From Candidatus Kaiserbacteria bacterium RIFCSPLOWO2_01_FULL_45_25 (GTDB lineage: Bacteria > Patescibacteriota > Minisyncoccia > Phycocordibacterales > UBA918), in assembly GCA_001781415.1 (NCBI GenBank), contig MFLT01000012.1:6485-70484 (forward strand): a stretch of DNA of 64,000 bases, given 5' to 3'. This document shows positions 7,913-64,000 of the stretch, one piece after another. Position numbers and translations under genes: made by a program. Numbering within the stretch: position 1 is the first letter of the stretch; each line of letters starts with the position of its first letter. The notes under the pieces are model-generated. The model saw only the letters and a program-made list of their open reading frames with translations, did no database searches and was not told where the DNA came from.

Positions 7913-7968
7913 GATTACTCCTTCAGTTATTTATGGGAACGAGGCAACAACTACTAAATCATATATTG

Positions 7969-8003
7969 AAAAAAAGAAAAGCCGCGCCCTTTGGGGCGCG
8001 GCT
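7969..8003 (-). terminator. intrinsic terminator, member of repeated GAAAAGCCGCnCCCTTTGGGGnGCGGCT element
   Basis: GCCGCGCCC tttg GGGCGCGGC stem, long U-run on minus; near-identical copy at 8833..8872 with compensatory G>A/C>T change. Confidence 0.6.
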
Positions 8004-8776: not shown

Positions 8777-8832
8777 GGTCTACTCCTTGGTGTGGGTTGG
8801 AACTATTCGTCTACAACTAAACCATAAATTTA

Positions 8833-8872
8833 GAAAAAGAAAAGCCGCACCCTTTGGGGTGCGGCTTTTCTT
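8833..8872 (-). terminator. intrinsic terminator, second copy of repeated terminator element
   Basis: GCCGCACCC tttg GGGTGCGGC with flanking A/T runs. Confidence 0.6.
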
Positions 8873-28339: not shown

Positions 28340-29056
28340 TTAGTTACGAGTAACACGAGTGATGTTTCGGTTGAGCACATTAGTGATTAGGCCGTCTGAC
28401 TGACTAACGCCAGTTTGAACATTGCCAGCGGCAGCACCGCTTCCACCAGTGCCACCATTTCCACCAACGGCGGTGTTATCACCCATATTGAGCCACCACC
28501 AGAAACTAAAAGCAGCATCCGCGTCGGCGTCACCGCCATTACCTCCCTCTTCACCGTCACCGCCATCACTGTCGTTGCCGCCAGTGCGAGCTCTGACTTG
28601 AAGTTCGTTTTCTAGATTGGCTTCATTATTGTTGGTTACGTCAACATCGTCTGATCCACCAAAGAAGAATGGGAAGTCAAAATCATCATCGCATCCGCAT
28701 CCCTCGACTTCGGTCTCGTTACGATTGATGTCATTATCAATGGTACCAATTGCTAGAGCACCGCCAGTGCTGATATTGCCTCCGGTGCCACCACTACCGC
28801 CGTTGCCTCCATCTCCACCAGTAGCGTCACCATCTTCAGAATCAGCTTCTCCACCATTACCACCCTCTTCACCGTCGCCACCATCGCTGTCGTTGCCGCC
28901 AGTGCTGGCACCAACAGAAAGTGAGTTTGATACGGTGGCGCTGTTAGAGTTGTTTACCGTCACATCATCAGCGTATGCAAATGAAGCAAATGAAAGTGCA
29001 ATCATCGCAACTGTAGCTATGCTAGAAATAGATAGTACTTGAATTATTTTAGTCAT
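28340..29056 (-). CDS. secreted Gly/Asp-rich repeat protein (internal duplication)
   Basis: 238 aa, signal peptide; duplicated ARTGGNDSDGGDGEEGGNGG unit; shares repeat architecture with 25277..27844. Confidence 0.6.
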   Translation of the reverse strand: MTKIIQVLSISSIATVAMIALSFASFAYADDVTVNNSNSATVSNSLSVGASTGGNDSDGGDGEEGGNGGEADSEDGDATGGDGGNGGSGGTGGNISTGGALAIGTIDNDINRNETEVEGCGCDDDFDFPFFFGGSDDVDVTNNNEANLENELQVRARTGGNDSDGGDGEEGGNGGDADADAAFSFWWWLNMGDNTAVGGNGGTGGSGAAAGNVQTGVSQSDGLITNVLNRNITRVTRN

Positions 29057-32190: not shown

Positions 32191-32225
32191 CGACCACTAA
32201 GCAAATGCTTAGTGGTCGGCTGTTG

Positions 32226-32298
32226 TGGACTCTAGGGGAATCGAACCCCTTACCTCTTCCATGCCATGGAAGCGCTCTACCAAATGAGCTAAGAGCCC
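32226..32298 (-). tRNA. tRNA-Ala (anticodon GGC)
   Basis: manual fold: acceptor GGGCTCT/AGAGTCC with G3:U70, D-arm GCTC/GAGC, anticodon stem CTTCC/GGAAG loop ATGGCAT, T-arm AGGGG-TTCGATT-CCCCT, discriminator A; CCA not encoded. Confidence 0.85.
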
Positions 32299-33281: not shown

Positions 33282-33409
33282 TTTTCCTCCAAATGATTGA
33301 TACTAACAAATCCGGCTGAAATTAAATCACTATTGTAGTATGGTGTCAATTAAGACCCTTTCTCCTAATGCTAATTAAAGAGACTGAAATAGGAGTATTC
33401 TCTATGTAT

Positions 33410-33437
33410 CACTTGTGATACATAGAATTATGTATGA
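33410..33437. promoter_or_regulatory. palindromic candidate operator TCTATGTATCActtgTGATACATAGA
   Basis: 12-bp perfect arms; near-identical palindrome at 54118..54145. Confidence 0.4.
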
Positions 33438-33588
33438 ATAGGTGCAAAAGCTATAATTTAAACAAATTAATTAATGTTTTGGGTTTTAATGTGGTGTCAA
33501 TTTACAGTAATGATGTGTCACAAACTATTAATAAAACCAGCCCAGCAATTATCAATTGCTGGGCTGGTTTAGGAGTCGCTTCTAACTG

Positions 33589-35846: not shown

Positions 35847-35923
35847 TTTCTTCTGGTCCACGAATAAAAAAGGCCGTCACTAGTGTGACGGACGCTTTTT
35901 TATATTCGTGGACCAGAGAAGAT
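35847..35923. repeat. inverted repeat (CTTCTGGTCCACGAATA / TATTCGTGGACCAGAGAAG) enclosing terminator hairpin CCGTCAC tagt GTGACGG; distal arm is the 3' end of tRNA-Ala(UGC)
   Basis: 17-19-nt arms; same architecture as downstream of tRNA-Ala(GGC). Confidence 0.65.
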
Positions 35924-35981
35924 TCGAACTCCCTGCCTCCTCAGTGCAAATGAGGCGCTCTACCAAGTGAGCTACTGGCCC
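35909..35981 (-). tRNA. tRNA-Ala (anticodon UGC)
   Basis: manual fold: acceptor GGGCCAG/CTGGTCC with G3:U70, D-arm GCTC/GAGC, anticodon stem CCTCA/TGAGG loop TTTGCAC, T-loop TTCGAAT (T-stem GGGAG/CTTCT with two G:U), discriminator A. Confidence 0.75.
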
Positions 35982-53722: not shown

Positions 53723-54117
53723 TACAAAAAGGACTAGGTATATACACTGGGTATACCTAGTCCTCGTGAACGTTATTGAATCAGTTGAATTTCAGCGACC
53801 CTGGCTGCAGTTTCGATTGTTTTGAAACTTTGTGCTGCAGCGGAATTTAATGCTGAAAATGTCTGGCTCAAAAAGTGTGATAGTGCCCAAAGGATTATCA
53901 CAAAACCAATTGCTTTTCGCATACAAAGTGTATTGCGACCCTGAGACCCTTTTCGAAAAGGCCATCATGTAAAATGAAAGGGGCGCGGCAATTGGTAACA
54001 ATGAACTTACCTGCTCATACTAGAGCACATTTTTTGAGTTTATGCAAATCTAGCTTTAGCTGCCTTGATGCTAATTAATTTGTTTTAATTCTTCGCTTTT
54101 CTGCAACTATTTATACA

Positions 54118-54145
54118 TAATTCTATGTATCATTAATGATACATA
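54118..54145. promoter_or_regulatory. palindromic candidate operator TTCTATGTATCAttaaTGATACATAGAA
   Basis: perfect 12-bp arms; second copy of palindrome seen at 33410..33437. Confidence 0.4.
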
Positions 54146-54399
54146 GAAAATAAGTCTATTTTGAGCCTTTTTAATTATCAAAGGAGTTCCAGTTCCAGGG
54201 ATTTGTCTGGAAGGCCGCTTCAGCTGACAGCTCCCTGCGAAGTCTAATCTGATTAAGCGCTTGTATAAGATTATTACTTATAGTGGTAGCTTCAAGTACC
54301 TGGCGGACCACATACCTTAGTTTCTCCCTGCGGGGTCGAAACTAAGGTTGTGTCTGCCTAAGCAAAACATAATCGCGCTCTGCGCTCTTTGTTTCTGCT

Positions 54400-54957: not shown

Positions 54958-55440
54958 TTACCCCTTAATAAATAACTCAAACTCTTCTGGTCTTTCTCCC
55001 GGAGCGGCCGGAATTAGATTTAGTTCAACCACTCTACCCATGAAAGTAGCCGTTACTGTAGCTTCAGGTGAAGCGGCGACTGACTCTGTGATAAACCGCT
55101 GTGTAGTCATAACTTGCGCACACATCTCTGAGTTATTGATGACATTAAAATTAAGGACGATTTGCTCTGGATATGATTCTCGAACCGTTGTATCAACCTC
55201 AAGCAAGTCACATGGTGTTGGAAGAACAAGTTCACCAGCAAAAGTATGTTCACCATCAATGATGTAATGCTTGGCATCAATTCGAGTAATGCCTGGGTAG
55301 AGCACTACTTCTTCTTCAACTGGAGTTTCTACGACTGGTGTTTGCACCATCTCAGCTCGCTTCAAGTAGGCAAACACAAACATCCCTACGATGATAAGTA
55401 GAAAAAAACTTACTACTAGAAGTATTGTTCGCTTGTCCAT
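54958..55440 (-). CDS. hypothetical membrane-anchored protein
   Basis: 160 aa, N-terminal TM, 10-nt gap to next gene. Confidence 0.5.
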   Translation of the reverse strand: MDKRTILLVVSFFLLIIVGMFVFAYLKRAEMVQTPVVETPVEEEVVLYPGITRIDAKHYIIDGEHTFAGELVLPTPCDLLEVDTTVRESYPEQIVLNFNVINNSEMCAQVMTTQRFITESVAASPEATVTATFMGRVVELNLIPAAPGERPEEFELFIKG

Positions 55441-55480
55441 AGTTAAAATATTATGCTTGTAACTATTGTTAGTATATCAC

Positions 55481-57127
55481 TTATTCACGCTTCGCATCAT
55501 CTCCAACGTAGACGGTCAAAGTTTTATCACTAACGTCGTTTGTTTCGTACGTTGAAATAGGAGCATTATTTAAGACTGAACTGAGACGAAGAGCTTCGGT
55601 CTCTTCTCCAGCCTTATAGATAACAACCGTACGTTTTTGTGGACTAGTGGTTTCTGACTTTAAGGTGGTTACCTTATAACCAAGAGCTTCAAGTTTGAGT
55701 CTCACCTCAGCTCCAAGACCAGGTACACCACTCCGATTAATGACCGCCACCGGTGGCAGGTGTTCACTGACAGTGAACTGACTTAGCTTGCGCTCGTTAC
55801 GGAGCTGATTATAAATAATCTCTTCCGATGTCAAAGTCACATTACTATCAGCATTTTCATACACCACTTCGTAATTACGTTGATTAGTGGTAGCGCTTCC
55901 GACATACCAGGCAATAAAACCAATAAATATTCCTATCACTAGAATACCAATAAAGAATAGTTGGTACTTTTTAATAAACACCAGAATTTGACGCAAATAA
56001 CCCAGGGCATCTTTGGCTGTTGCCAAGTGAAGTTTTAAATCAACATAACCTCTGGTCACAGGCGTATGAAGCTTAACCGCTTTTTGGGCACGGAATTTTT
56101 CTACCACCAAGCCGTTCTTTTTGGCTGCCTGATATTCTTCTACATTAATACCCGCCATCACCAGCATGTGTCGTACATATAGACGAACAAACCAACTAAT
56201 TAGTGCCCCGAAGAGTACTAATCCGAGCAAAATACCAAATAATAATTTGAATGGAATCACCCAAAACTCGGTTTGCATGGAAGCGAATTGCCGCGATTCA
56301 CTACCATAAGCTAAAGTGGCTACTGCGGTGTAGCGGCCAATATCAGCCATTGACCATTCTCCTTTCCAAGAAAAAGTAAATTTACGAATACTCTCGGGCA
56401 AAACGTTACCAAACTGTGAAGCTTGATTAATTGGGATTAAACCACGCTCTTCACCCCACATGTTGGTGATTTTAATTTCTCCCTGTGGTTGCAGGTGAAC
56501 ATTACCTTTGTTTTCAAAACGAAGATCAAAAGTTACTTCTGGAGATCCGAGGAAACGATCAGTGGTGGTAAATTCACGAATGGTACCTTCTTCAATAATG
56601 TCTCCAGCTACCCTAGCAAAGAAAAGTGAAGTGACCATCTGTGAAGTTTGAACCTTCGCTTGTCCAGCTTCAGGAGTTGGCGGTTTGGTGCCAACAAGAA
56701 TTGCTGCGAAGTGTCCACCTGGACTAGCATCAAATGGTACACGAACTGAAAAAGGAATTTCTAGTGATTGTTCACGTGGGACTATGATGGCACCACGTTC
56801 GATTGTGAACCACTCGGCCAAAGTAACCCCTTCACCCTCACCTGGAGTAACCGGCATAAACCTACCTTCTCCACTCTCACCGCGGGGCACAAAGTTCACC
56901 ACATCAACATAAACAGTTAGGTCGTAATCGTTTACGTTAATAACCCGAAGATTACTACGCCACTCCTGTCCAGGATTTACGGACATATCAAAGAGTGACG
57001 GCGAGATGCTCAGTGTAAGCGACTCTTGAGCCTGAACCGCGTTTGCACCAAAGACAACAAAACCAAGGACTAGTACTCCAAAAAATTTAAGCCCCGCCCT
57101 TGAGATTGATGTCATGATCGTATTCAT
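55481..57127 (-). CDS. surface protein paralog B (signal peptide, two beta-rich domains, TM, long C-terminal region)
   Basis: start reassigned to MNTIMTSISRAGLKFFGVLVL... (ATG 57127..57125); paralogous to 57087..58094 (HFAAILVGTK / HAFVGFAAG; NKGNVHLQPQGEIKITN / NTGDVPLQPTGDVIIYD). Confidence 0.6.
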   Translation of the reverse strand: MNTIMTSISRAGLKFFGVLVLGFVVFGANAVQAQESLTLSISPSLFDMSVNPGQEWRSNLRVINVNDYDLTVYVDVVNFVPRGESGEGRFMPVTPGEGEGVTLAEWFTIERGAIIVPREQSLEIPFSVRVPFDASPGGHFAAILVGTKPPTPEAGQAKVQTSQMVTSLFFARVAGDIIEEGTIREFTTTDRFLGSPEVTFDLRFENKGNVHLQPQGEIKITNMWGEERGLIPINQASQFGNVLPESIRKFTFSWKGEWSMADIGRYTAVATLAYGSESRQFASMQTEFWVIPFKLLFGILLGLVLFGALISWFVRLYVRHMLVMAGINVEEYQAAKKNGLVVEKFRAQKAVKLHTPVTRGYVDLKLHLATAKDALGYLRQILVFIKKYQLFFIGILVIGIFIGFIAWYVGSATTNQRNYEVVYENADSNVTLTSEEIIYNQLRNERKLSQFTVSEHLPPVAVINRSGVPGLGAEVRLKLEALGYKVTTLKSETTSPQKRTVVIYKAGEETEALRLSSVLNNAPISTYETNDVSDKTLTVYVGDDAKRE

Positions 57128-58094
57128 TGTGCTCACGTTTCTTACCGACAAACATTGGAACATCTTGTGGCTCTGCCTCTTCAACATAACTTGAACGTTT
57201 AAGATTTCGACGGAGCAAGATTACCAAAATGGTTAAAACTATGGCTAATAATACCATGATAATGACCAAATAGAACCAAGGTATTGAATAGTAAAAATTA
57301 GTGTCATAAAGAGCTGCCCGGTTTTGTACTCCGTATTCTAGTGACAAATAAGCCTTATTTTTACCTAACCGGTTCATAAAAGGTAGCGGTTTGGTATAAG
57401 TGACCTTCTCGCCAGGGGCGATAATAGTCTTTGACTCGTCCTCAAGAGAAACTGAGGTGAGCTCTCGGCCGCGAGAATCATAAATAATCACGTCGCCGGT
57501 CGGTTGAAGCGGCACATCACCAGTGTTTTCAAGAATATAAGTTATCTGGCCTTTGTCGGGCGAAATACTGAAGCGGTCGGTAGTAAATGACACCAGACGA
57601 AGAAACTCTTCTTGTTTAGAACCAACCACAATGCGAATCACAGCACCCATTCCCTGCCCCTCGAGCACCTTGGCTTGAGCAATATCACGATTTGATCCAG
57701 CAGCAAAGCCGACAAAAGCGTGGTAAGTACCAGGCGGTGCCTTTTGATTGACTCTAATTGTGAGTGGAACTTCGGTTGTTTCTCCCGCTGGTAATTCAAT
57801 TCGACCGCGGGTAATTTCAATCCAACTTGTAACAGCGGTGGTTCGCTCACTCATGGAAGCTGGTACAAAACTTTTTATTTCACTCTCGTCACCAACAGTA
57901 ATTTCGTTTACTGAGGCGTACAGCCTGACTGGCCGGCTGTCAAAGTTGGTTATGGTAAGAGTTTTGGTAAAAGTGTCGTGTGGCTCAGCCTCGATATCAA
58001 TAATCATTGGTGAAACTGAGTATTCAGCCTGTACCGAAGCAAACGGCAGAACCAGGAGGACAAAGATAAGCGCAAAGAAATTTTTTGAATTCAT
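57087..58094 (-). CDS. surface protein paralog A (signal peptide + C-terminal TM anchor; CscA/DUF916-like topology)
   Basis: 335 aa; MNSKNFFALIFVLLVLPFASVQA signal peptide; C-terminal LVIIMVLLAIVLTILVILL TM + basic tail. Confidence 0.6.
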   Translation of the reverse strand: MNSKNFFALIFVLLVLPFASVQAEYSVSPMIIDIEAEPHDTFTKTLTITNFDSRPVRLYASVNEITVGDESEIKSFVPASMSERTTAVTSWIEITRGRIELPAGETTEVPLTIRVNQKAPPGTYHAFVGFAAGSNRDIAQAKVLEGQGMGAVIRIVVGSKQEEFLRLVSFTTDRFSISPDKGQITYILENTGDVPLQPTGDVIIYDSRGRELTSVSLEDESKTIIAPGEKVTYTKPLPFMNRLGKNKAYLSLEYGVQNRAALYDTNFYYSIPWFYLVIIMVLLAIVLTILVILLRRNLKRSSYVEEAEPQDVPMFVGKKREHNEYDHDINLKGGA

Positions 58095-58100
58095 AGGTAA

Positions 58101-61100
58101 CTAATACGATGGTACGGCTAAGTAAACAATTTCGGTTTCATATGATCCGGCTGGCTGAAGCTGATTAACCTTTATTCGATACACTATATCATGGGTATCA
58201 GAACTTGGAATTCCACTATACATCACCTCAACTGGAGTGGTTTCCAGTGCCGCATAAGTGTCTGTGGCCGCAAAGCGAGTAGAGCCATTTTTGAGAGTTG
58301 GATCAGTCACATGATAACCGAAGCAGCCAGTTGAAGTTGGAGCACAGGCGTCCGCCCAACTATCAGGAACCAAGTTAGTGGCCGCAATTGGCGGGATAAA
58401 TACCCCAGCCTGACTTTGAAGTTGCTGACGAGCAAACTTAAATAACTGATAGCCCTCAGTAGCATTACTTTCTACTGTGACACGATGAGCACCGATATAC
58501 TCAGTGCCGAGATTAAGAAAGCCAAACCCAATACCAGTTGGAGAAGACGGGACGTCGGTTATTACTCCTGCTGTTGAAGTGCCTGAGGGTAGCCCACTTA
58601 GGGAGAAGTTCAAATACGGCCCTTCAATCACGAGCGACGGAAATGTATTACTGTCGACATGATTTACCGGAGCGTCGTTTGACACATCATATAAGCGGAA
58701 ATAATACACGGCCTGCACTCGTGCTGCCACCTGTCTGATAGTGAAGCTGTGCTCCTTGGTGGTACTGGCATAATGAATGTCGCCAGTGGCGTACTCTCCT
58801 GATGAGTTGTGAACTCCACAACCAAATCCAGCCCCAGCCACACAGCTATCACTACCAGTAAGTACACTAGTGGTGATGGTTTGATTATCTGGAGAAGACC
58901 CTTCGGCGTAGCACCACAGTGATCCCTCCAAGCAGCTAGAAGTGGCCGTCACATCATAGGCGGTGGCGAAAGTTGGATCCTCTGAATATTGAAGTTTGAA
59001 TTTTATATTGTCACCCTGAACGTTTCGTCGCTCAGTCACGGCAATGCGGAGGGCCAATGTATCATTGTTGGCGATATTAGTTGGAGCCACCTCCTCAAGA
59101 GCCAGTGGCGTCACTGGTGTTTCATTGTTTATGTCACTATACCAACGCCAAACGGTAGTGGCTGGGGTGTAACCAGCGGTTCTAATTTGTGGGTAGTTGT
59201 TATATCCATCAAGCGGAGTACCGTCACTTTTTACGGCTCTAAAACAATAAGTTGATTGTGGGATGGCGCCGTTATGCTCCAGGTGCCAATCGTATTCAAT
59301 ATCATTTCCATCAAGAGTTGGGTACGGATTGGCTACTGTAGGATTTTGTTGAGCCAACGAACCAGAAATATCAGCTACCGAAATTAACAAATCTCCAGGA
59401 TTTGGGGGATTGGTAGACAATGATTGTCCATCGGTGGTAGTGGCTGAGGCAAAACCACGCCAGACTGTACCACTACTAATGGCTCCAACATCAAACCACG
59501 AACCACTATCTATAGCCGAACAAGTAGTAGCGCGCACTCCATATTGTAATTTAAAGTTAACAAACCCAGCGGGCATATTGGCGTTACTAGTTCTGACCGT
59601 CATTCTGATTCGTACCCGATCGCCAGTACCAAGTGGTTCGTCTGCAATGGTAATTGAGGTATTCTCTCCTAGACCAGCCAGATTTGGTGGCCAGGCTTCC
59701 GTTGGAGTTAGTTCACCATTATTGACATAAAAACGATAATAATTCTGACGAAGTGACAAATCAGCCACTGGCCATTCAATCAGTTCTACTCGATACGTCA
59801 TGTTGGTACCAGTGTTACTACGCCAAATTGTGTAAGTAGAGGTACTAGTGAGCCCAAAGCCCGCCAATGGTCTTGGGTAGGTAGTGTTGGCTCCAGCTGC
59901 TCTAGTATTGGCCATAATGGAGGTATTATTTACCGAAGCCACTGGCGTTGGTAAGTTTACAGTCAGAGTTAACGGCCCAGTTCCACCGTTAGTGGCACCA
60001 TTGGAGCGCTGCACATTCATTTCACCTAAACCACTCTGAATATTTTCGACTACCCAAGCTACGGAAGTTTGTTCAACTGCCACACTGGCGCCTGTTTCTA
60101 GTTGGAAAGAAATTGCCCCAATACTAGACAGCCATACTTCGTGACCAAAATGCACGACGTTGGTGGTAGCACCCATCCGTTTCTGAACATGCAAAAAAGT
60201 CCGAGCCAAGCTATTCACAGCGGTGATACTTTCGGTTTCAGTGACACCGGCAGCAGCGTAACTATGTTCTGCTCGTTGTATCTGCCAATTAGTACCCACA
60301 AATTCAACTACCGCATAACTAACATTAGCAATACTGGCACCAGAGGCACCACGTCTAAATACAGGCGACTGAGTCACACTGTCCCACTCGGATGTCACTA
60401 GACCAGCGTAAAAGTTTCGAGAAGCATTACGGTTTTCGACGCCAGTCACAAAGACCACCACGTCACTATCGTTAGTTATTCCAGTCACCGGTGTTCCAGT
60501 AGCAACAACAGTAGCTGTCGTATAAGAGACAGTACCAACCGAACGTACCCTTATCTCGTTGTCAGTATCTTGCTTTCCGATAAACTCAACAATCTCCCAC
60601 TCTACTCTGGTGTTTGAGGTGGCAGCTGGAGGCCTGGTAATGGTAAAGCTGGTAAGTAAATTCTCTGGATTTGATATGTAAGCAGTGACATCGTCAGCGT
60701 TTTGTCCGGCAGTGGCTGAGGTGTTACCCGCACCCGTCTGGTGTGAATTTGTGATGCGCACAAAAGCCAGGCTTGAACTGGCCGGAGCTACATAGTCTGT
60801 ACCAGCCACCAAAGTTGCACTGGTGCCTGAGACTTGGGTTATGCCGCGCTGAATTTTGAAGTCACGTTTGGGAGCAGTAGTTATTTCTGCATAGTTAGTG
60901 TACACAGACAACGGTGTACCATTAGCCGACACTCTAAAACAATAAGTTGTCCCGTATGAGGTAAATTCAGTCGAAGTTATACTGTATTCAAGTTCAACAT
61001 AGTCATTGGTAGGAATACTTGTGCTGGCTGATAGGGATTCAGTGTCACGCACGCCACCATTGGGAGTAATAAAGGTACCAGGTGAATTACTGACTCCTCC

Positions 61101-64000
61101 ACTACCTACAGCCAAGTTGGTGGTATCGCTACCATTAGTCAAAAAAGTAGAGTCAAACATATCCCAACCATCAAGTGATGAATCAACGTCTGTCCAAACT
61201 GTAGCGGTATCACAAGTAGTAATACGTGGTGCGTACTCTAGCCTAAATCTATTCTCAGGACCAGTTACACTTCCAGTGTTTGTAACCGCTAAGCGTAGAC
61301 GAATTGGCGACTCAAGACTAAAGTCAGACAGAAGGGTGTTTTCGGTGCCACCAGTGGCTGAAGTAGCTGCTGTTTCGTTCCCATTATCATTTCGCCAATG
61401 GTAGTTTGTTTGAGTAAGAATTGGACCAACCACCGTTGTCTCTCCAGAGATCATCACTTGACCAGATGGTCCAATACTAGCCCCACCACTAGCCGCCACG
61501 TCGGTGGCTGGAGAATTAATAGCTAGACTGATGGTATCACCGTTATTGGCGTCAGCCGAAACGTCATAGACCACATACAAACAAAGTGTGGCAGTGGTTG
61601 AACTTATGACTGAGTCTGTAAAAATCGCGCTGCCGGCAGTATCGGTAAACCCTCCAGTGACGGTACTACCATACTGACTTTCGGTACCAGCATAAGTCTC
61701 CGATGAGCAGTTATAAGGAGCACTGCTATCTAAATCATAATACAACCTAATATTATCCAGCCCAGCCACTTCATCAATTGTGCCAAGTTCAGTGACCGTA
61801 ACTGAAGTTATGTTACGTGATGAGGAGTTTTCAATAATGGCAAAACTACCGCCGGCATAAACATCACTAGCACCAACGGTGGCATTGGTAGTAAGAGTAC
61901 CCAGACTGGATACAGTAACATCCGAATTGATAGTAACAGTTGGGTAATTTGAATACACACTCAGAGGCTGACCCCCGCCAGTGATACGGAAACAATAGGT
62001 CAATCCCTCCTCGGCTGTACTTGAAGCCATAATAGAAAATTCTGCTTCAAAAAAGTCATTCTGATTAAGGGTCAGTGACGGTGTGGTGTTGTTACTGTCA
62101 CGCAGGGCTCCGTTAGTTGTTAGGTAGTTTGTACTTGGCAAATTTGTCAGTCCGCCGTTACCAACAGTTATGTCGGTAGTATCTGAGCCATCAGTAATAT
62201 TGGACGAGTCAGCCATTTGCCACACGGCACTCACATCACCCACTGTCGACCAAGTGACAATATCTGTACAACTTGGTGCCGCCACACCATACTCAAGACT
62301 ATAAGTAGTAGGTACGCTACTAGTTGAACCTTGATTGGCAATACCAAGACGGAGTCTAATTAATTCCTCTTTTTGTAATGACGTTAATGGAGTATTCTCG
62401 GTGCCACCAGTCGCTGAAGTGGCTCCACTTTCAGAACCATCATCATTACGCCAATGATAAGCAAATTGAGTAAGGCTGGAATCCACTACAGTGGTCGTAC
62501 CAGGAAGTAGCACTGCCGATGAAGGAAACACTTCCAGTCCTCCCGAAACGAGAATGTCGTTAACTGGATCAGCTACCAAAATTTCTATAGTGTCTCCGTC
62601 TTGGGCATTGCTATTGATATCAAACACTACATAAAAACACATTGTCTGAGTTGTATTGATTGAAACTGGTGACGCTGTAAACGAAGCCACACCATCAGCA
62701 CCAGAAAATCCACCTGAGACAGTACCGCCAAATTGTGAATCCCCTCCCGCATAACTTTCAGAACTACAATCGTAGGGAGAGGAAGTATCAAGATCATAAA
62801 ACAGACGCACATTACTGACCGAGCCCTGGGCATCTAGAGTTCCATTTTCTGAAATCACAATTGATGAGACGGTCTGAGCCGACTTGGCATCCAAACTAAA
62901 TGAACCGCCAATATACTGATCAGTCACAGAATTTCTTACTTGACTAACTTGAGTGCCAAGACCGGTGAGAATAATCTGCGGGCCAATGTCAGCTACTGTC
63001 TCTCCATACAAGTCCAAAGCTCCTGATGCGTTATACCAGGTTGTATACAGTCTTTCATAACCCATGAGGTTCATATCAACGCCGTACAAATCACCAGCAG
63101 TAGTTGTGAGTGGGCCAGCTTCAGCATCCCAGGTATTCATATTGTCAGTTGAACGTCTATAGTAAACTCGTCCGGTGGAAGCTGTAGCGAGGGTGTCACG
63201 AATGGAATAGGCAGCGTATATATCACCATTGTTAAGATCACGCCCTACAGCTACCTGATGTAGTCCGCGCCCAGCGATGTTGGTAAACACGTTTGCGGTA
63301 GCAGACCATGAACCAGCAGAAAATATAGCGGTGCGGATATCATGATCAGCAGTCACAAACTCATTGTTATCAGCAGCGTAAACCAAATAAATATCACCGC
63401 TAGCAATATCGACAGTTGCAGCCATACCTACGTCATAAGTGGCATTTCCAGCTGAGGCGGCGTCAATAGTATTAAAACCAGACCAAGAAGAACCATTCCA
63501 AGTACTGGAACGGATAACATGTGTGGTACTACGATTGATGAGCAAAACACTTCCACTTGGTAGTGGCATAAGCAAAGACCAACTGTTAGCGTTGCCTTGG
63601 GGGGCTGTACCAGTTGCAGACCAGTTACCACTAACGCCACAACTGGTGGAGCAGCGTCGGATATGAGTACCATTACTGTCGTCTATGTTTATATAAACAG
63701 TGCCGTCAGTTCCTTTAGTGATTGAGACAACGTTTGTGCCCGCTGCGTAGGTAGTGGCGACCCCGGGCATAGTACTGATACTAGTGGACACAAGTAATGT
63801 GTCGGTAGAAGTGTCAAGGTTATTGTAAAAAATCTCATCGTTACCAGTATCAAAAGTAGCAATGTGAATTATGGTACCAGTATCACCAGGAGTCCACTGG
63901 TCGTACCAAACCGATACTGCCACACAGTCAGTCTGACTATCGACCCGCACTCTTGCCCCCCAAGTATTTCCCCCATCTGTAGTCTTGCTATAAACACACA
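58101..64000 (-). CDS. giant secreted repeat protein (>=1965 aa, N-terminus beyond window) with BNR/Asp-box motifs and >=4 tandem ~190-aa modules
   Basis: frame open to window edge (track 'start' at 63950 is GTG, upstream codons ...YSKTTDGGNTWGAR have no stop); Asp-box-like SKTTDGGNTW, STDNMNTW; modules marked by Y[HR]WRNDxG...IRLR...FRLEY...YCFR...PL..YxNYP. Confidence 0.7.
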   Translation of the reverse strand, partial: CVYSKTTDGGNTWGARVRVDSQTDCVAVSVWYDQWTPGDTGTIIHIATFDTGNDEIFYNNLDTSTDTLLVSTSISTMPGVATTYAAGTNVVSITKGTDGTVYINIDDSNGTHIRRCSTSCGVSGNWSATGTAPQGNANSWSLLMPLPSGSVLLINRSTTHVIRSSTWNGSSWSGFNTIDAASAGNATYDVGMAATVDIASGDIYLVYAADNNEFVTADHDIRTAIFSAGSWSATANVFTNIAGRGLHQVAVGRDLNNGDIYAAYSIRDTLATASTGRVYYRRSTDNMNTWDAEAGPLTTTAGDLYGVDMNLMGYERLYTTWYNASGALDLYGETVADIGPQIILTGLGTQVSQVRNSVTDQYIGGSFSLDAKSAQTVSSIVISENGTLDAQGSVSNVRLFYDLDTSSPYDCSSESYAGGDSQFGGTVSGGFSGADGVASFTASPVSINTTQTMCFYVVFDINSNAQDGDTIEILVADPVNDILVSGGLEVFPSSAVLLPGTTTVVDSSLTQFAYHWRNDDGSESGATSATGGTENTPLTSLQKEELIRLRLGIANQGSTSSVPTTYSLEYGVAAPSCTDIVTWSTVGDVSAVWQMADSSNITDGSDTTDITVGNGGLTNLPSTNYLTTNGALRDSNNTTPSLTLNQNDFFEAEFSIMASSTAEEGLTYCFRITGGGQPLSVYSNYPTVTINSDVTVSSLGTLTTNATVGASDVYAGGSFAIIENSSSRNITSVTVTELGTIDEVAGLDNIRLYYDLDSSAPYNCSSETYAGTESQYGSTVTGGFTDTAGSAIFTDSVISSTTATLCLYVVYDVSADANNGDTISLAINSPATDVAASGGASIGPSGQVMISGETTVVGPILTQTNYHWRNDNGNETAATSATGGTENTLLSDFSLESPIRLRLAVTNTGSVTGPENRFRLEYAPRITTCDTATVWTDVDSSLDGWDMFDSTFLTNGSDTTNLAVGSGGVSNSPGTFITPNGGVRDTESLSASTSIPTNDYVELEYSITSTEFTSYGTTYCFRVSANGTPLSVYTNYAEITTAPKRDFKIQRGITQVSGTSATLVAGTDYVAPASSSLAFVRITNSHQTGAGNTSATAGQNADDVTAYISNPENLLTSFTITRPPAATSNTRVEWEIVEFIGKQDTDNEIRVRSVGTVSYTTATVVATGTPVTGITNDSDVVVFVTGVENRNASRNFYAGLVTSEWDSVTQSPVFRRGASGASIANVSYAVVEFVGTNWQIQRAEHSYAAAGVTETESITAVNSLARTFLHVQKRMGATTNVVHFGHEVWLSSIGAISFQLETGASVAVEQTSVAWVVENIQSGLGEMNVQRSNGATNGGTGPLTLTVNLPTPVASVNNTSIMANTRAAGANTTYPRPLAGFGLTSTSTYTIWRSNTGTNMTYRVELIEWPVADLSLRQNYYRFYVNNGELTPTEAWPPNLAGLGENTSITIADEPLGTGDRVRIRMTVRTSNANMPAGFVNFKLQYGVRATTCSAIDSGSWFDVGAISSGTVWRGFASATTTDGQSLSTNPPNPGDLLISVADISGSLAQQNPTVANPYPTLDGNDIEYDWHLEHNGAIPQSTYCFRAVKSDGTPLDGYNNYPQIRTAGYTPATTVWRWYSDINNETPVTPLALEEVAPTNIANNDTLALRIAVTERRNVQGDNIKFKLQYSEDPTFATAYDVTATSSCLEGSLWCYAEGSSPDNQTITTSVLTGSDSCVAGAGFGCGVHNSSGEYATGDIHYASTTKEHSFTIRQVAARVQAVYYFRLYDVSNDAPVNHVDSNTFPSLVIEGPYLNFSLSGLPSGTSTAGVITDVPSSPTGIGFGFLNLGTEYIGAHRVTVESNATEGYQLFKFARQQLQSQAGVFIPPIAATNLVPDSWADACAPTSTGCFGYHVTDPTLKNGSTRFAATDTYAALETTPVEVMYSGIPSSDTHDIVYRIKVNQLQPAGSYETEIVYLAVPSY

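What the first reader, a model, noticed from the sequence alone, without database searches (positions are those of the whole stretch)
58101..62300. At least four tandem ~190-aa modules in the giant protein
Each module has a conserved N-terminal W/Y-rich motif: TQFAYHWRNDDGSE, TQTNYHWRNDNGNE, RQNYYRFYVNNGEL, TTVWRWYSDINNET. Each also has IRLR/RIRM and F[RK]L[EQ]Y strands, a conserved Cys, and a C-terminal YCFR...PL..Y.NYP motif.

The repeat does not obviously correspond to Ig, FN3 or cadherin repeats. The N-terminal part (towards 64000) instead carries Asp-box/BNR-like motifs (SKTTDGGNTW, STDNMNTW), as in sialidase-type beta-propellers. The combination suggests a carbohydrate-binding propeller plus a stalk of novel repeats.
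Basis: seen in the sequence. Interest (0 to 1): 0.5.

Follow-up and report, generated by a model that had tools for sequence, protein, structure and literature searches.

The report
Uncatalogued repeat domain in giant surface protein
A roughly 2,050-residue secreted protein of an uncultured ultra-small (Patescibacteria) bacterium contains four copies of a 185-residue, disulfide-bonded, immunoglobulin-like module that no domain database lists although it occurs in thousands of proteins, and the protein is most likely a cell-surface attachment fibre.

Summary
The minus-strand ORF 58101..>64000 has its 5' end cut by the window. It holds exactly four full-length copies of one ~185-aa module (B), at aa 507-693, 859-1044, 1414-1610 and 1611-1794. 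A family HMM built without the window's sequences gives E-values of 7.5e-49 to 5.2e-27. Only B3 and B4 are adjacent. B1 and B2 belong to a 352-aa A+B super-repeat, and a 368-aa domain X separates B2 from B3.

Module B has no Pfam, NCBIfam or PDB sequence match. It nevertheless hits 2,531 cluster representatives in 1.84 billion proteins, with up to about 20 copies per protein.

In 37 Patescibacteria genomes the architecture is signal peptide, variable BNR-propeller head, then A-B-A-B-X-B-B-C.

Proteins ending in domain C were followed by a two-Ig-domain membrane protein in all five contexts examined. A LytR_C membrane protein came next in the four contexts whose contigs reach that far.

My reading is a fibrillar-adhesin-like surface protein built from undescribed domain families. 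This function is inferred, not shown.

The parts
58101..64000 (-). Giant surface-protein gene. The stop codon is at 58101-58103 and the 5' end lies beyond the window. 1,965 codons are visible; full-length orthologues are mostly 2,049-2,065 aa.
   Evidence: open frame to the window edge; orthologues such as P0013, 2,047 aa
62988..63998 (-). Domain N (aa 1-337, N-terminally cut): BNR/Asp-box-type beta-propeller-like head. It is the part that varies between orthologues.
   Evidence: BNR_2 E 5.3e-5, 23.2 bits, below the 31.4 cut-off. 10 of 19 orthologues hit BNR_2. The best PDB profile hits are sialidases at E 0.12. The head is replaced or duplicated in some orthologues.
63960..63983 (-). Asp box 1 (TTDGGNTW)
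63129..63152 (-). Asp box 2 (STDNMNTW)
62484..62987 (-). Domain A, copy 1 (aa 338-505): uncatalogued ~168-aa domain with a conserved Cys pair
   Evidence: Self-BLAST; alignment A7; no Pfam or PDB match; not related to B
61920..62480 (-). Module B1 (aa 507-693), Cys577/Cys669
   Evidence: E 7.5e-49 with an HMM lacking window sequences; AF2 model pLDDT 97
61425..61931 (-). Domain A, copy 2 (aa 690-858)
60867..61424 (-). Module B2 (aa 859-1044), Cys929/Cys1020
   Evidence: E 1.6e-48
59769..60872 (-). Domain X (aa 1043-1410): uncatalogued 368-aa region, the best-conserved part of the stalk
   Evidence: Alignment A8; no Pfam or PDB match; not related to B; no convincing internal repeat
59169..59759 (-). 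Module B3 (aa 1414-1610), Cys1493/Cys1585
   Evidence: E 1.4e-46
58617..59168 (-). Module B4 (aa 1611-1794): divergent copy that lacks the family Cys pair and has four invariant Cys (1689, 1696, 1719, 1727)
   Evidence: E 5.2e-27
58104..58598 (-). Domain C (aa 1801-1965): conserved C-terminal domain ending ...GSYETEIVYLAVPSY; proposed docking or anchoring domain
   Evidence: Alignment A4; no Pfam match (including WxL) and no PDB match; always followed by g335/g568 homologues
57087..58094 (-). g335: signal peptide, two Ig-like ectodomains, C-terminal TM helix. Proposed membrane partner of domain C.
   Evidence: weak WxLIP_PGBD in 11 of 27 orthologues, best E 1.3e-6; synteny
55481..57187 (-). 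g568: paralogous ectodomain, two TM helices, C-terminal LytR_C domain
   Evidence: LytR_C E 9e-12
54958..55440 (-). g160: small N-terminally membrane-anchored protein, conserved next to the cassette in 28 of the 38 syntenic loci. Membership of the system is uncertain.

Best explanation
The gene encodes a Sec-secreted giant cell-surface protein of a Patescibacteria (CPR, Paceibacteria/Parcubacteria-type) bacterium.

Its four B modules belong to a large domain family absent from every library searched here. Each module is ~185 aa, extracellular and usually disulfide-bonded. It has an Ig-like beta-sandwich core and a conserved ~80-residue loop-rich elaboration.

Together with domains A and X, the B modules form the shaft of a fibrillar-adhesin-like protein. 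The shaft holds a variable N-terminal head, here a probably non-catalytic BNR/Asp-box propeller, away from the cell. The invariant C-terminal domain C docks the protein to two membrane-anchored Ig-domain proteins encoded immediately downstream (g335 and g568, the latter with a LytR_C domain).

Shown:
- the four modules and the size of the family
- the predicted fold class and the Cys-pair covariation
- the conserved architecture and the variable head
- the recurrent three-gene cassette

Inferred:
- surface location
- orientation, with the C terminus proximal and the head distal
- docking of C to g335/g568
- an adhesive or host-recognition role
For: 1. Modules. Self-BLAST and a family HMM without window sequences find exactly four full-length copies.

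2. Family size. An exhaustive hmmsearch of 1.84 billion representatives gives 2,531 proteins at E<=1e-3 and 249 at E<=1e-30. A single protein carries up to 21 matched stretches, or 19 by my own domain count. Median module length is 183 aa.

3. Not catalogued. There is no consistent Pfam, NCBIfam or PDB sequence match.

5. Extracytoplasmic. The two Cys co-occur: 234 modules have both, 147 have neither and 8 have one. Orthologues have an N-terminal hydrophobic signal ending ..AEAA.

6. Architecture. SP-N-A-B-A-B-X-B-B-C is conserved in most of 37 species. The head is duplicated or replaced in about 11 of them, while X-B-B-C is constant.

7. Old, position-specific paralogues. B3 is 58% identical to B3 of other species but only 23-27% identical to the other modules.

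8. Cassette. In the syntenic loci the C-terminated protein is followed by g335 and g568 homologues. In four unrelated contexts with different architectures and GC content (L039, L041, L042, L044) it is followed by a g335 homologue, and also by a g568 homologue in the three whose contigs extend far enough.

9. Other extracellular settings. B modules also occur as 10-13 tandem copies behind prepilin-type N-termini.

10. Literature. Nelson & Stegen 2015 (PMC4508563) noted unique OD1 proteins of more than 1,500 aa with beta-sheet domains and internal repeats 'indicative of adhesins'.
Against: - There is no experimental or expression evidence.
- The window lacks the N-terminus, so the signal peptide is known only from orthologues. 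It could be an uncleaved membrane anchor, which would reverse the orientation.
- Domain C has no detectable similarity to any known anchoring domain. WxL, LPXTG, S-layer-homology (SLH) and LysM are all absent.
- Near-constant length and architecture, single-copy synteny with housekeeping genes and position-specific conservation look more like a core envelope component than a fast-evolving adhesin.
- The conserved loop-rich subdomain and near-invariant Arg/Glu residues suggest the B modules may bind something rather than act as inert spacers.
- The g335 similarity to WxLIP_PGBD is sub-threshold and shared with generic Ig-like families.
Confidence: 0.6

Rival explanations
1. The B modules are ligand-binding (carbohydrate-binding-module-like or cell-wall-binding) domains rather than structural shaft units. 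The protein would then be a multivalent lectin or glycan-processing complex, with the BNR propeller as the active or binding head.
Against: There is no significant sequence or fold match to any CBM family. Proteins with 10-21 near-tandem copies look like shafts. The propeller lacks a FRIP motif and an Arg triad.
Confidence: 0.2
2. The protein is a core envelope or S-layer-type structural component of Paceibacteria rather than an adhesin. It would be tethered by g335/g568, the latter carrying a LytR_C cell-envelope domain.
Against: The head domain is swapped or duplicated between species, which is typical of recognition proteins. C-terminated paralogues with other architectures exist. No SLH or other known S-layer anchoring motif was found.
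Confidence: 0.15
3. The modules are divergent members of an existing cross-linked stalk family (CnaA/CnaB, or DUF11 = CLIPPER) with intramolecular isopeptide bonds, so the protein is an ordinary pilin- or adhesin-type protein.
Against: None of 38 modules gives a Pfam DUF11 or Cna hit. TMq is only 0.33 and ~100 of 184 residues align. No Lys or Asn column is conserved: the maxima are 46% and 52%. B1 and B2 lack the Lys. There is no LPXTG motif.
Confidence: 0.05

Closest known systems
Fibrillar adhesins / large repetitive bacterial surface proteins (stalk of Ig-like domains plus a distal binding domain), e.g. the Acinetobacter CLIPPER adhesin B9T28_05395 (PMC12617251)
   Same: - Size is about 2,000 aa, and orthologues have a signal peptide.
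- Beta-sandwich modules are repeated.
- The terminal head is distinct and variable, and the opposite end is conserved.
- The module core is Ig-like, and the CLIPPER domain is the best Foldseek hit.
   Different: - The module is 185 aa rather than ~100-120 aa, with a conserved ~80-residue elaboration.
- It matches no Pfam family.
- It has a disulfide rather than an isopeptide.
- There are only four copies, interleaved with other domains and individually conserved, not a homogeneous tandem array.
- No known anchor (LPXTG, OmpA, T1SS, autotransporter) is present.
WxL surface-protein loci of Firmicutes (a WxL-domain protein plus a DUF916/DUF3324 'WxL-interacting protein' with a C-terminal TM helix). 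Description from my own knowledge of the Enterococcus/Lactobacillus literature.
   Same: - The gene cassette has the same logic: a secreted protein with a conserved C-terminal domain and no covalent-anchor motif, followed by a membrane protein built as signal peptide, two beta-sandwich domains and a TM helix.
- g335 orthologues give weak WxLIP_PGBD hits: 11 of 27, best E 1.3e-6.
- The terminal strand pattern Y-x-T-x-I-x-Y-L-A-x-P resembles the terminal WxL strand. This is by eye only.
   Different: - Domain C gives no WxL (PF13731) hit in 33 orthologues.
- The WxLIP_PGBD hits are below the cut-off and are shared with generic Ig families.
- The second partner carries LytR_C.
- The organism is a Patescibacterium, not a Firmicute.
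BNR/Asp-box beta-propellers (sialidase superfamily, Pfam BNR_2)
   Same: There are two canonical Asp boxes. The ~385-aa head fits a six-bladed propeller. Sub-threshold BNR_2 hits occur in the window and in 10 of 19 orthologues. The top PDB profile hits are sialidases.
   Different: All scores are below Pfam's gathering threshold, and the PDB hits are at E 0.12. There is no FRIP motif in any of the 19 sequences, and only two Arg are invariant. No structure was predicted for this part.
Modular type IV pilins (e.g. Streptococcus sanguinis PilB, PMC8179133)
   Same: Other members of the B-module family (P0008, P0009, P0010) have prepilin-type N-termini followed by 10-13 B modules. P0010 lies next to another N_methyl protein.
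   Different: Orthologues of the window's protein have a Sec-type signal, not a prepilin motif. They end in domain C, which the pilin-type proteins lack.

Membership tests
B-module family (defined here by HMM) | Full-length, significant match to a family profile built without the query | tested here: met
   Four matches covering HMM positions ~1-178, E 7.5e-49 to 5.2e-27
B-module family (defined here by HMM) | Signature residues: Q, [YFW]-R-W on strand 1; R-L-R on strand 2; F/Y-x-L-Q/E-Y; E; Y-C-F-R; Y-x-x-Y-P | tested here: met
   Column frequencies over 389 modules. B1-B3 carry all of them. B4 lacks the Q and the Cys pair.
Ig-like beta-sandwich fold class | Structural superposition on solved Ig-like sandwiches | tested here: met
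Named Pfam repeat families (fn3, Cadherin, Big_x, CARDB, DUF11/CLIPPER, Cna_B, PKD) | hmmscan match at or near the gathering threshold | tested here: not met
   No hit for the window's modules at E<=10. No family is shared by more than 1 of 38 diverse modules at E<=1.
Isopeptide-bonded stalk domains (CnaA/CnaB/CLIPPER) | Conserved Lys plus Asn/Asp plus a catalytic acid | tested here: not met
   The most conserved Lys column is 46% and the most conserved Asn column is 52%. B1 and B2 lack the Lys.
Fibrillar adhesin (functional class) | Export signal and extracellular location | tested here: inconclusive
   The window lacks the N-terminus. Orthologues have an N-terminal hydrophobic segment ending AEAA. 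Cys-pair covariation suggests an oxidising compartment. No localisation data exist.
Fibrillar adhesin (functional class) | Repeated stalk domains plus a distinct terminal binding domain | tested here: met
   Architecture N-A-B-A-B-X-B-B-C with a variable head
Fibrillar adhesin (functional class) | Demonstrated binding to a surface or host | not testable with these tools
   Needs an experiment
BNR/sialidase beta-propeller | Asp-box repeats (S/T-x-D-x-G-x-T-W) | tested here: met
   Two canonical boxes at aa 6-13 and 283-290, and one degenerate G-x-S-W
BNR/sialidase beta-propeller | Pfam BNR_2 at or above the gathering score | tested here: not met
   23.2 bits against 31.4. 10 of 19 orthologues hit at E<=0.1 (best E 8.3e-6); every BNR_2 score whose bits were shown (17.4-26.6) is below the 31.4 cut-off.
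BNR/sialidase beta-propeller | Catalytic signature (FRIP motif, Arg triad) | tested here: not met
   No [FYW]R[IVL]P in 19 of 19 sequences. Only two Arg are invariant.
WxL / WxLIP cell-surface system | C-terminal WxL domain (PF13731) on the displayed protein | tested here: not met
   No WxL hit in 33 orthologous B4+C regions at E<=1
WxL / WxLIP cell-surface system | Adjacent membrane protein with a WxLIP_PGBD (DUF916)-type domain and a C-terminal TM helix | tested here: inconclusive
   g335 has a signal peptide, a ~240-aa ectodomain and a TM helix. WxLIP_PGBD scores 18.7 bits against 27.3 in the window and hits 11 of 27 orthologues, best E 1.3e-6, alongside NPCBM_assoc, DUF4832 and CARDB.
Sortase-anchored (LPXTG) surface protein | C-terminal LPXTG motif, hydrophobic segment and charged tail | tested here: not met
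   No LPXTG-like motif. The protein ends ...EIVYLAVPSY and no hydrophobic segment was detected.
Type IV (modular) pilin | Prepilin N-terminal cleavage/methylation motif | tested here: not met
   Orthologue N-termini are Sec-like. The motif is present only in other B-module proteins, P0008-P0010.
DGR (diversity-generating retroelement) target protein | Variable repeat/template repeat pair near the gene | tested here: not met
   No direct or inverted repeat of 40 nt or more involves the gene in the 64-kb window

The most novel reading that the evidence does not exclude
Module B, domain C and the two downstream membrane proteins define a previously undescribed cell-surface display system of Patescibacteria. 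It would be functionally analogous to, but not detectably homologous with, the Firmicute WxL/WxLIP system. Giant proteins with interchangeable recognition heads would be held on the cell by non-covalent docking of domain C to g335/g568. The B module would be a new ligand-binding or mechanically specialised Ig-like superfamily that is also used in modular type IV pilins outside the CPR. If so, this cassette would be a prime candidate for the host-attachment apparatus of Paceibacteria/Parcubacteria, for which none was identified in the papers found here.
Probability: 0.3. Interest if true: 0.65.

Novelty: new variant of a known kind. Interest (0 to 1): 0.45.

Why it matters
Patescibacteria are thought to live attached to other microbes, yet the attachment machinery of the large Parcubacteria/Paceibacteria branch is essentially unknown.

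This locus gives a concrete, conserved candidate. It is a ~2,050-aa secreted protein, of which about 1,600 residues fall in four domain families (A, B, X, C) absent from Pfam, NCBIfam and the PDB. It is paired with two membrane proteins in a recurrent cassette.

Module B alone defines a family with at least 2,500 50%-identity clusters and a high-confidence predicted fold. It is therefore a straightforward candidate for a new Pfam/InterPro entry and would annotate thousands of 'hypothetical' giant proteins.

The head-swapping pattern suggests where host specificity might reside.

Otherwise the finding is incremental. Large beta-sandwich repeat proteins on bacterial surfaces are a familiar theme.

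Tried and rejected
- **Whole-protein self-BLAST.** It returns only the identity diagonal. I replaced it with masked piecewise BLAST.
- **Pfam, NCBIfam and PDB sequence searches.** I ran these on the whole protein, each domain, 38 diverse B modules and orthologue sets of N, A, X, C and g335. Only BNR_2 (sub-threshold), LytR_C and weak generic Ig families came up.
- **Foldseek against afdb50.** The library was unavailable.
- **Genome scan with the diverse B alignment.** I used the B4+C alignment instead.
- **Word-indexed protein search.** It returned only short fragments, all 'hypothetical'.
- **A or X as divergent B copies.** Rejected at hhalign probability ~1%.
- **Internal repeat in X.** Not supported.
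- **WxL identity of domain C.** Not supported by sequence. I could not obtain WxL sequences for a profile-profile test, and a tblastn of g335 against plasmids gave nothing useful.
- **Isopeptide or LPXTG pilin idea.** Rejected.
- **DGR targeting or DNA-level repeats.** None found.
- **Phage or plasmid origin of the module.** No tblastn hit.
- **Literature.** I found no paper describing this module or linking WxL to the CPR.
Full report
**1. What is in the sequence**

The finding lies in one minus-strand ORF. It ends at a stop codon at 58101-58103 and is still open at the window edge. I use the translation of window:58104-63998:- (1,965 aa) as the coordinate system.

YCFR/YYFR occurs at aa 668, 1019, 1584 and 1765, and the Asp-box strings at aa 4 and 283.

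Masked, piecewise self-BLAST shows a 352-aa super-repeat: aa 338-689 against 690-1042, ~45% identity, E down to 1e-37. Two further, weaker copies of its second half lie at aa ~1411-1608 and ~1611-1790, at ~30% identity and E 1e-4 to 1e-6.

The anatomy is therefore N (1-337), A1 (338-505), B1, A2 (690-858), B2, X (1043-1410), B3, B4, C (1801-1965).

A profile built only from modules of other organisms finds exactly four full-length B copies and nothing else in the protein:

| Module | aa | E-value |
|---|---|---|
| B1 | 507-693 | 7.5e-49 |
| B2 | 859-1044 | 1.6e-48 |
| B3 | 1414-1610 | 1.4e-46 |
| B4 | 1611-1794 | 5.2e-27 |

The repeat is invisible at DNA level.

However, 'tandem' is true only for B3-B4, and the stated upper coordinate (62300) truncates B1, which begins at nt 62480.

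**2. The module is a large family absent from every library searched**

hmmscan against Pfam and NCBIfam gives nothing for the whole protein, for each module at E<=10, or consistently for 38 diverse family members. phmmer and hmmsearch against all PDB sequences give nothing.

In contrast, an exhaustive hmmsearch of 1.84 billion cluster representatives with the four window modules finds:
- 2,531 proteins at E<=1e-3
- 1,169 proteins at E<=1e-10
- 249 proteins at E<=1e-30
- up to 21 matched stretches in a single protein, or 19 by my own domain count

Among the top 150 hits there are 397 full-length modules with a median length of 183 aa.

Family-wide conserved positions are:
- Q (85%)
- [YFW]-R-W on strand 1
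- R-L-R (86/76/98%)
- F/Y-x-L-Q/E-Y
- W, W and D-G-x-x-x-T in the middle
- E (91%)
- Y-C-F-R (93/60/94/96%)
- Y-x-x-Y-P

The two Cys co-occur almost perfectly: 234 modules have both, 147 have neither and 8 have one. This implies an intradomain disulfide and hence an extracytoplasmic location. In the window the pairs are 577/669, 929/1020 and 1493/1585. B4 lacks the pair and instead has four Cys that are invariant among orthologues.

**3. Fold**

With a 38-sequence alignment, AlphaFold2 gives pLDDT 97 and pTM 0.92 for B1. A 4-sequence run had given pLDDT 68.

The model has five long strands and several short ones. Between residues ~70 and ~140 lies a loop-rich but confidently predicted region.

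- an Ig-like domain of TRAPPC120
- CARDB
- alpha-2-macroglobulin MG domains
- GH3 C-terminal domains
- CLIPPER/DUF11
- Gram-positive pilin domains

Foldseek finds nothing at E<=1e-3. Its best hit is the CLIPPER stalk domain 9ifr (E 1.5e-3, TMq 0.33).

So the module is an Ig-like sandwich core with a family-specific ~80-residue elaboration. It is not a member of any solved or catalogued family as far as these tools can see.

The isopeptide chemistry of CnaA/CLIPPER domains (PMC12617251) is not conserved here. No Lys or Asn column exceeds 46% or 52%.

**4. Organism, orthologues and architecture**

A scan of one genome per GTDB species with the conserved B4+C region found 37 loci. Nearly all come from Patescibacteria MAGs labelled Paceibacteria, Parcubacteria, Kaiserbacteria or 'Saccharibacteria'. 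The closest, L002, is collinear with the window at ~82% nucleotide identity.

Orthologues are mostly 2,049-2,065 aa. They share an N-terminal hydrophobic signal ending ..AEAA, then N-A-B-A-B-X-B-B-C.

The X-B-B-C part is constant. The head is the variable part: it is duplicated in L006 and replaced by unrelated sequence in about ten species.

The four B copies are ancient, position-specific paralogues. B3 is 58% identical to B3 of other species but only 23-27% identical to the other modules. B1 against B1 is 52%, and B1 against B2 is 44-47%. There is no sign of concerted evolution.

Domains A and X are unrelated to B (hhalign probability ~1%). Like C, they have no Pfam or PDB match.

**5. The head**

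N has two canonical Asp boxes. It has sub-threshold BNR_2 matches: 23.2 bits against 31.4 in the window, and 10 of 19 orthologues at E<=0.1, best E 8.3e-6. Its best PDB profile hits are sialidases, at a non-significant E of 0.12.

No FRIP motif occurs in any of the 19 sequences, and only two Arg are invariant.

A BNR-type propeller is likely. Canonical sialidase catalysis is not.

**6. The cassette**

Directly downstream lie three genes:
- g335: signal peptide, ~240-aa ectodomain, TM helix
- g568: a paralogous ectodomain, two TM helices and LytR_C (E 9e-12)
- g160: an N-terminal TM helix

g335 orthologues give weak hits to WxLIP_PGBD (11 of 27, best E 1.3e-6) and to other Ig-like families.

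The order giant-g335-g568-g160-redoxin-AI-2E-PGA_cap-FKBP-TGT is kept, in whole or in large part, across most of the 37 species. All but three short contigs that end first show g568, and 28 loci show g160. That alone could simply reflect inherited synteny.

I therefore looked up four C-terminated proteins with other architectures, in unrelated neighbourhoods with GC of 36-57%:
- P0054, BBBC plus Flg_new_2
- P0036, BBBBC
- P0028, 2,898 aa
- P0037, NABBBBC

In every case a g335 homologue (30-36% identity) follows immediately. Wherever the contig continues, a g568 homologue (38-43% identity) follows that.

This recurrent trio is the main evidence that domain C works with g335/g568.

By contrast, P0010 has ten B modules behind a prepilin-type N-terminus. 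It sits next to another N_methyl protein and has no C, g335 or g568. The B module is therefore a general extracellular building block, used in at least two display contexts.

**7. Mechanism proposed**

*Shown:*
- four copies of a widespread module absent from Pfam, NCBIfam and the PDB, with a predicted Ig-like core and a covarying Cys pair
- a conserved multidomain architecture with a swappable head
- a recurrent three-gene cassette

*Inferred:*
- The protein is exported by Sec.
- Domain C docks non-covalently to the g335/g568 ectodomains at the membrane or cell wall.
- A, B and X form a shaft that projects the head, which recognises a glycan or other ligand on a host or substrate.

This has the logic of a fibrillar adhesin. 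In gene organisation it resembles the Firmicute WxL/WxLIP loci, but membership of that system fails the one testable defining feature: no WxL domain was found.

Nelson & Stegen (PMC4508563) had already remarked on unique OD1 proteins of more than 1,500 aa with beta-sheet domains and internal repeats 'indicative of adhesins'. I found no paper that defines the module or the cassette.

**8. Rivals**

- **(a) The B modules bind ligands themselves.** The conserved loop subdomain, the near-invariant Arg/Glu and the position-specific conservation favour this. It is not excluded.
- **(b) The protein is a core envelope or S-layer-like component.** The constant length, housekeeping synteny and LytR_C partner favour this. 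Head swapping and the existence of paralogues argue against it.
- **(c) The modules are divergent CnaA/CLIPPER isopeptide domains.** This is rejected on sequence, TM-score and the missing Lys/Asn.

**9. Verdict**

The interpretation of a 'propeller plus stalk of novel repeats' is broadly right, but the repeats do have an Ig-like core and are only part of a five-domain-type architecture.

It is a new variant of a familiar kind of protein. Its value is mainly as a new, very large domain family and as a candidate attachment cassette for Parcubacteria-type CPR bacteria. All functional statements remain inference.

Noticed in passing
window 54958-58094 (minus strand); loci L039, L041, L042, L044: A recurrent cassette. 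Any protein ending in domain C is followed by a g335-like protein (signal peptide, two Ig-like domains, TM helix). A g568-like LytR_C membrane protein comes next wherever the contig continues. g335 and g568 ectodomains are paralogous (24-26% identity).
   Followed up: yes
P0008, P0009, P0010; locus L040 6001-12153: Proteins made of 10-13 tandem B modules carry prepilin-type N-terminal methylation motifs. P0010 lies on a 518-kb, 62% GC contig next to another N_methyl protein. The module therefore also serves in modular type IV pilin-like proteins, probably outside Patescibacteria.
   Followed up: partly
loci L006, L017, L021, L022, L025, L029-L033, L038 (5' part of the giant gene): The N-terminal head is duplicated (L006) or replaced by unrelated sequence of ~200-600 aa, while X-B-B-C stays constant. 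In L030 and P0014/P0019 the head position carries an X-like domain.
   Followed up: partly
window 58617-59168 (module B4): B4 lacks the family's Cys pair. It has four Cys that are invariant in 33 orthologues, spaced C-x6-C and C-x7-C, which suggests two local disulfides.
   Followed up: partly
window 60452-60970 vs L002 6526-6627: The closest relative (L002, ~82% nt identity, collinear) lacks ~420 nt spanning the end of B2 and the start of X. This is either a real in-frame deletion or an assembly artefact in the MAG.
   Followed up: partly
window 33387-33449 and 54099-54161: A 63-nt inverted repeat, 84% complementary, with arms 20.6 kb apart. One arm lies just downstream of the redoxin gene.
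   Followed up: no
window 7936-8003 and 8799-8866: A 68-nt direct repeat (81% identity) ending in a GC-rich hairpin (AAAAGCCGCGCCC TTTG GGGCGCGGCT). It looks like duplicated terminator-containing intergenic elements.
   Followed up: no
window 28513-28651 and 28831-28969: A 139-nt direct repeat (71% identity), 318 nt apart, inside ORF 28340-29056. This indicates an internal protein repeat in another gene.
   Followed up: no
window 32225-32298 and 35908-35981: Two tRNA-Ala genes (anticodons GGC and TGC) on the minus strand. No rRNA or other Rfam family was found in the window.
   Followed up: no
loci L031, L033, L035: These contigs carry the typical Patescibacteria giant-gene cassette but are labelled Azotimanducaceae, Acidimicrobiales and Dehalococcoidia MAGs. 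They are probably mis-binned. Many 'Saccharibacteria' labels also sit among Paceibacteria-type loci.
   Followed up: no
window 59769-60872 (domain X): Domain X repeats a strand motif four times at ~90-100 aa spacing: RVEWEIVEFIG, SYAVVEFVGTNW, SVAWVVENIQ and YRVELIEWP. Profile comparison of sub-segments gave only a weak 26-column match (E 5.7e-4).
   Followed up: partly
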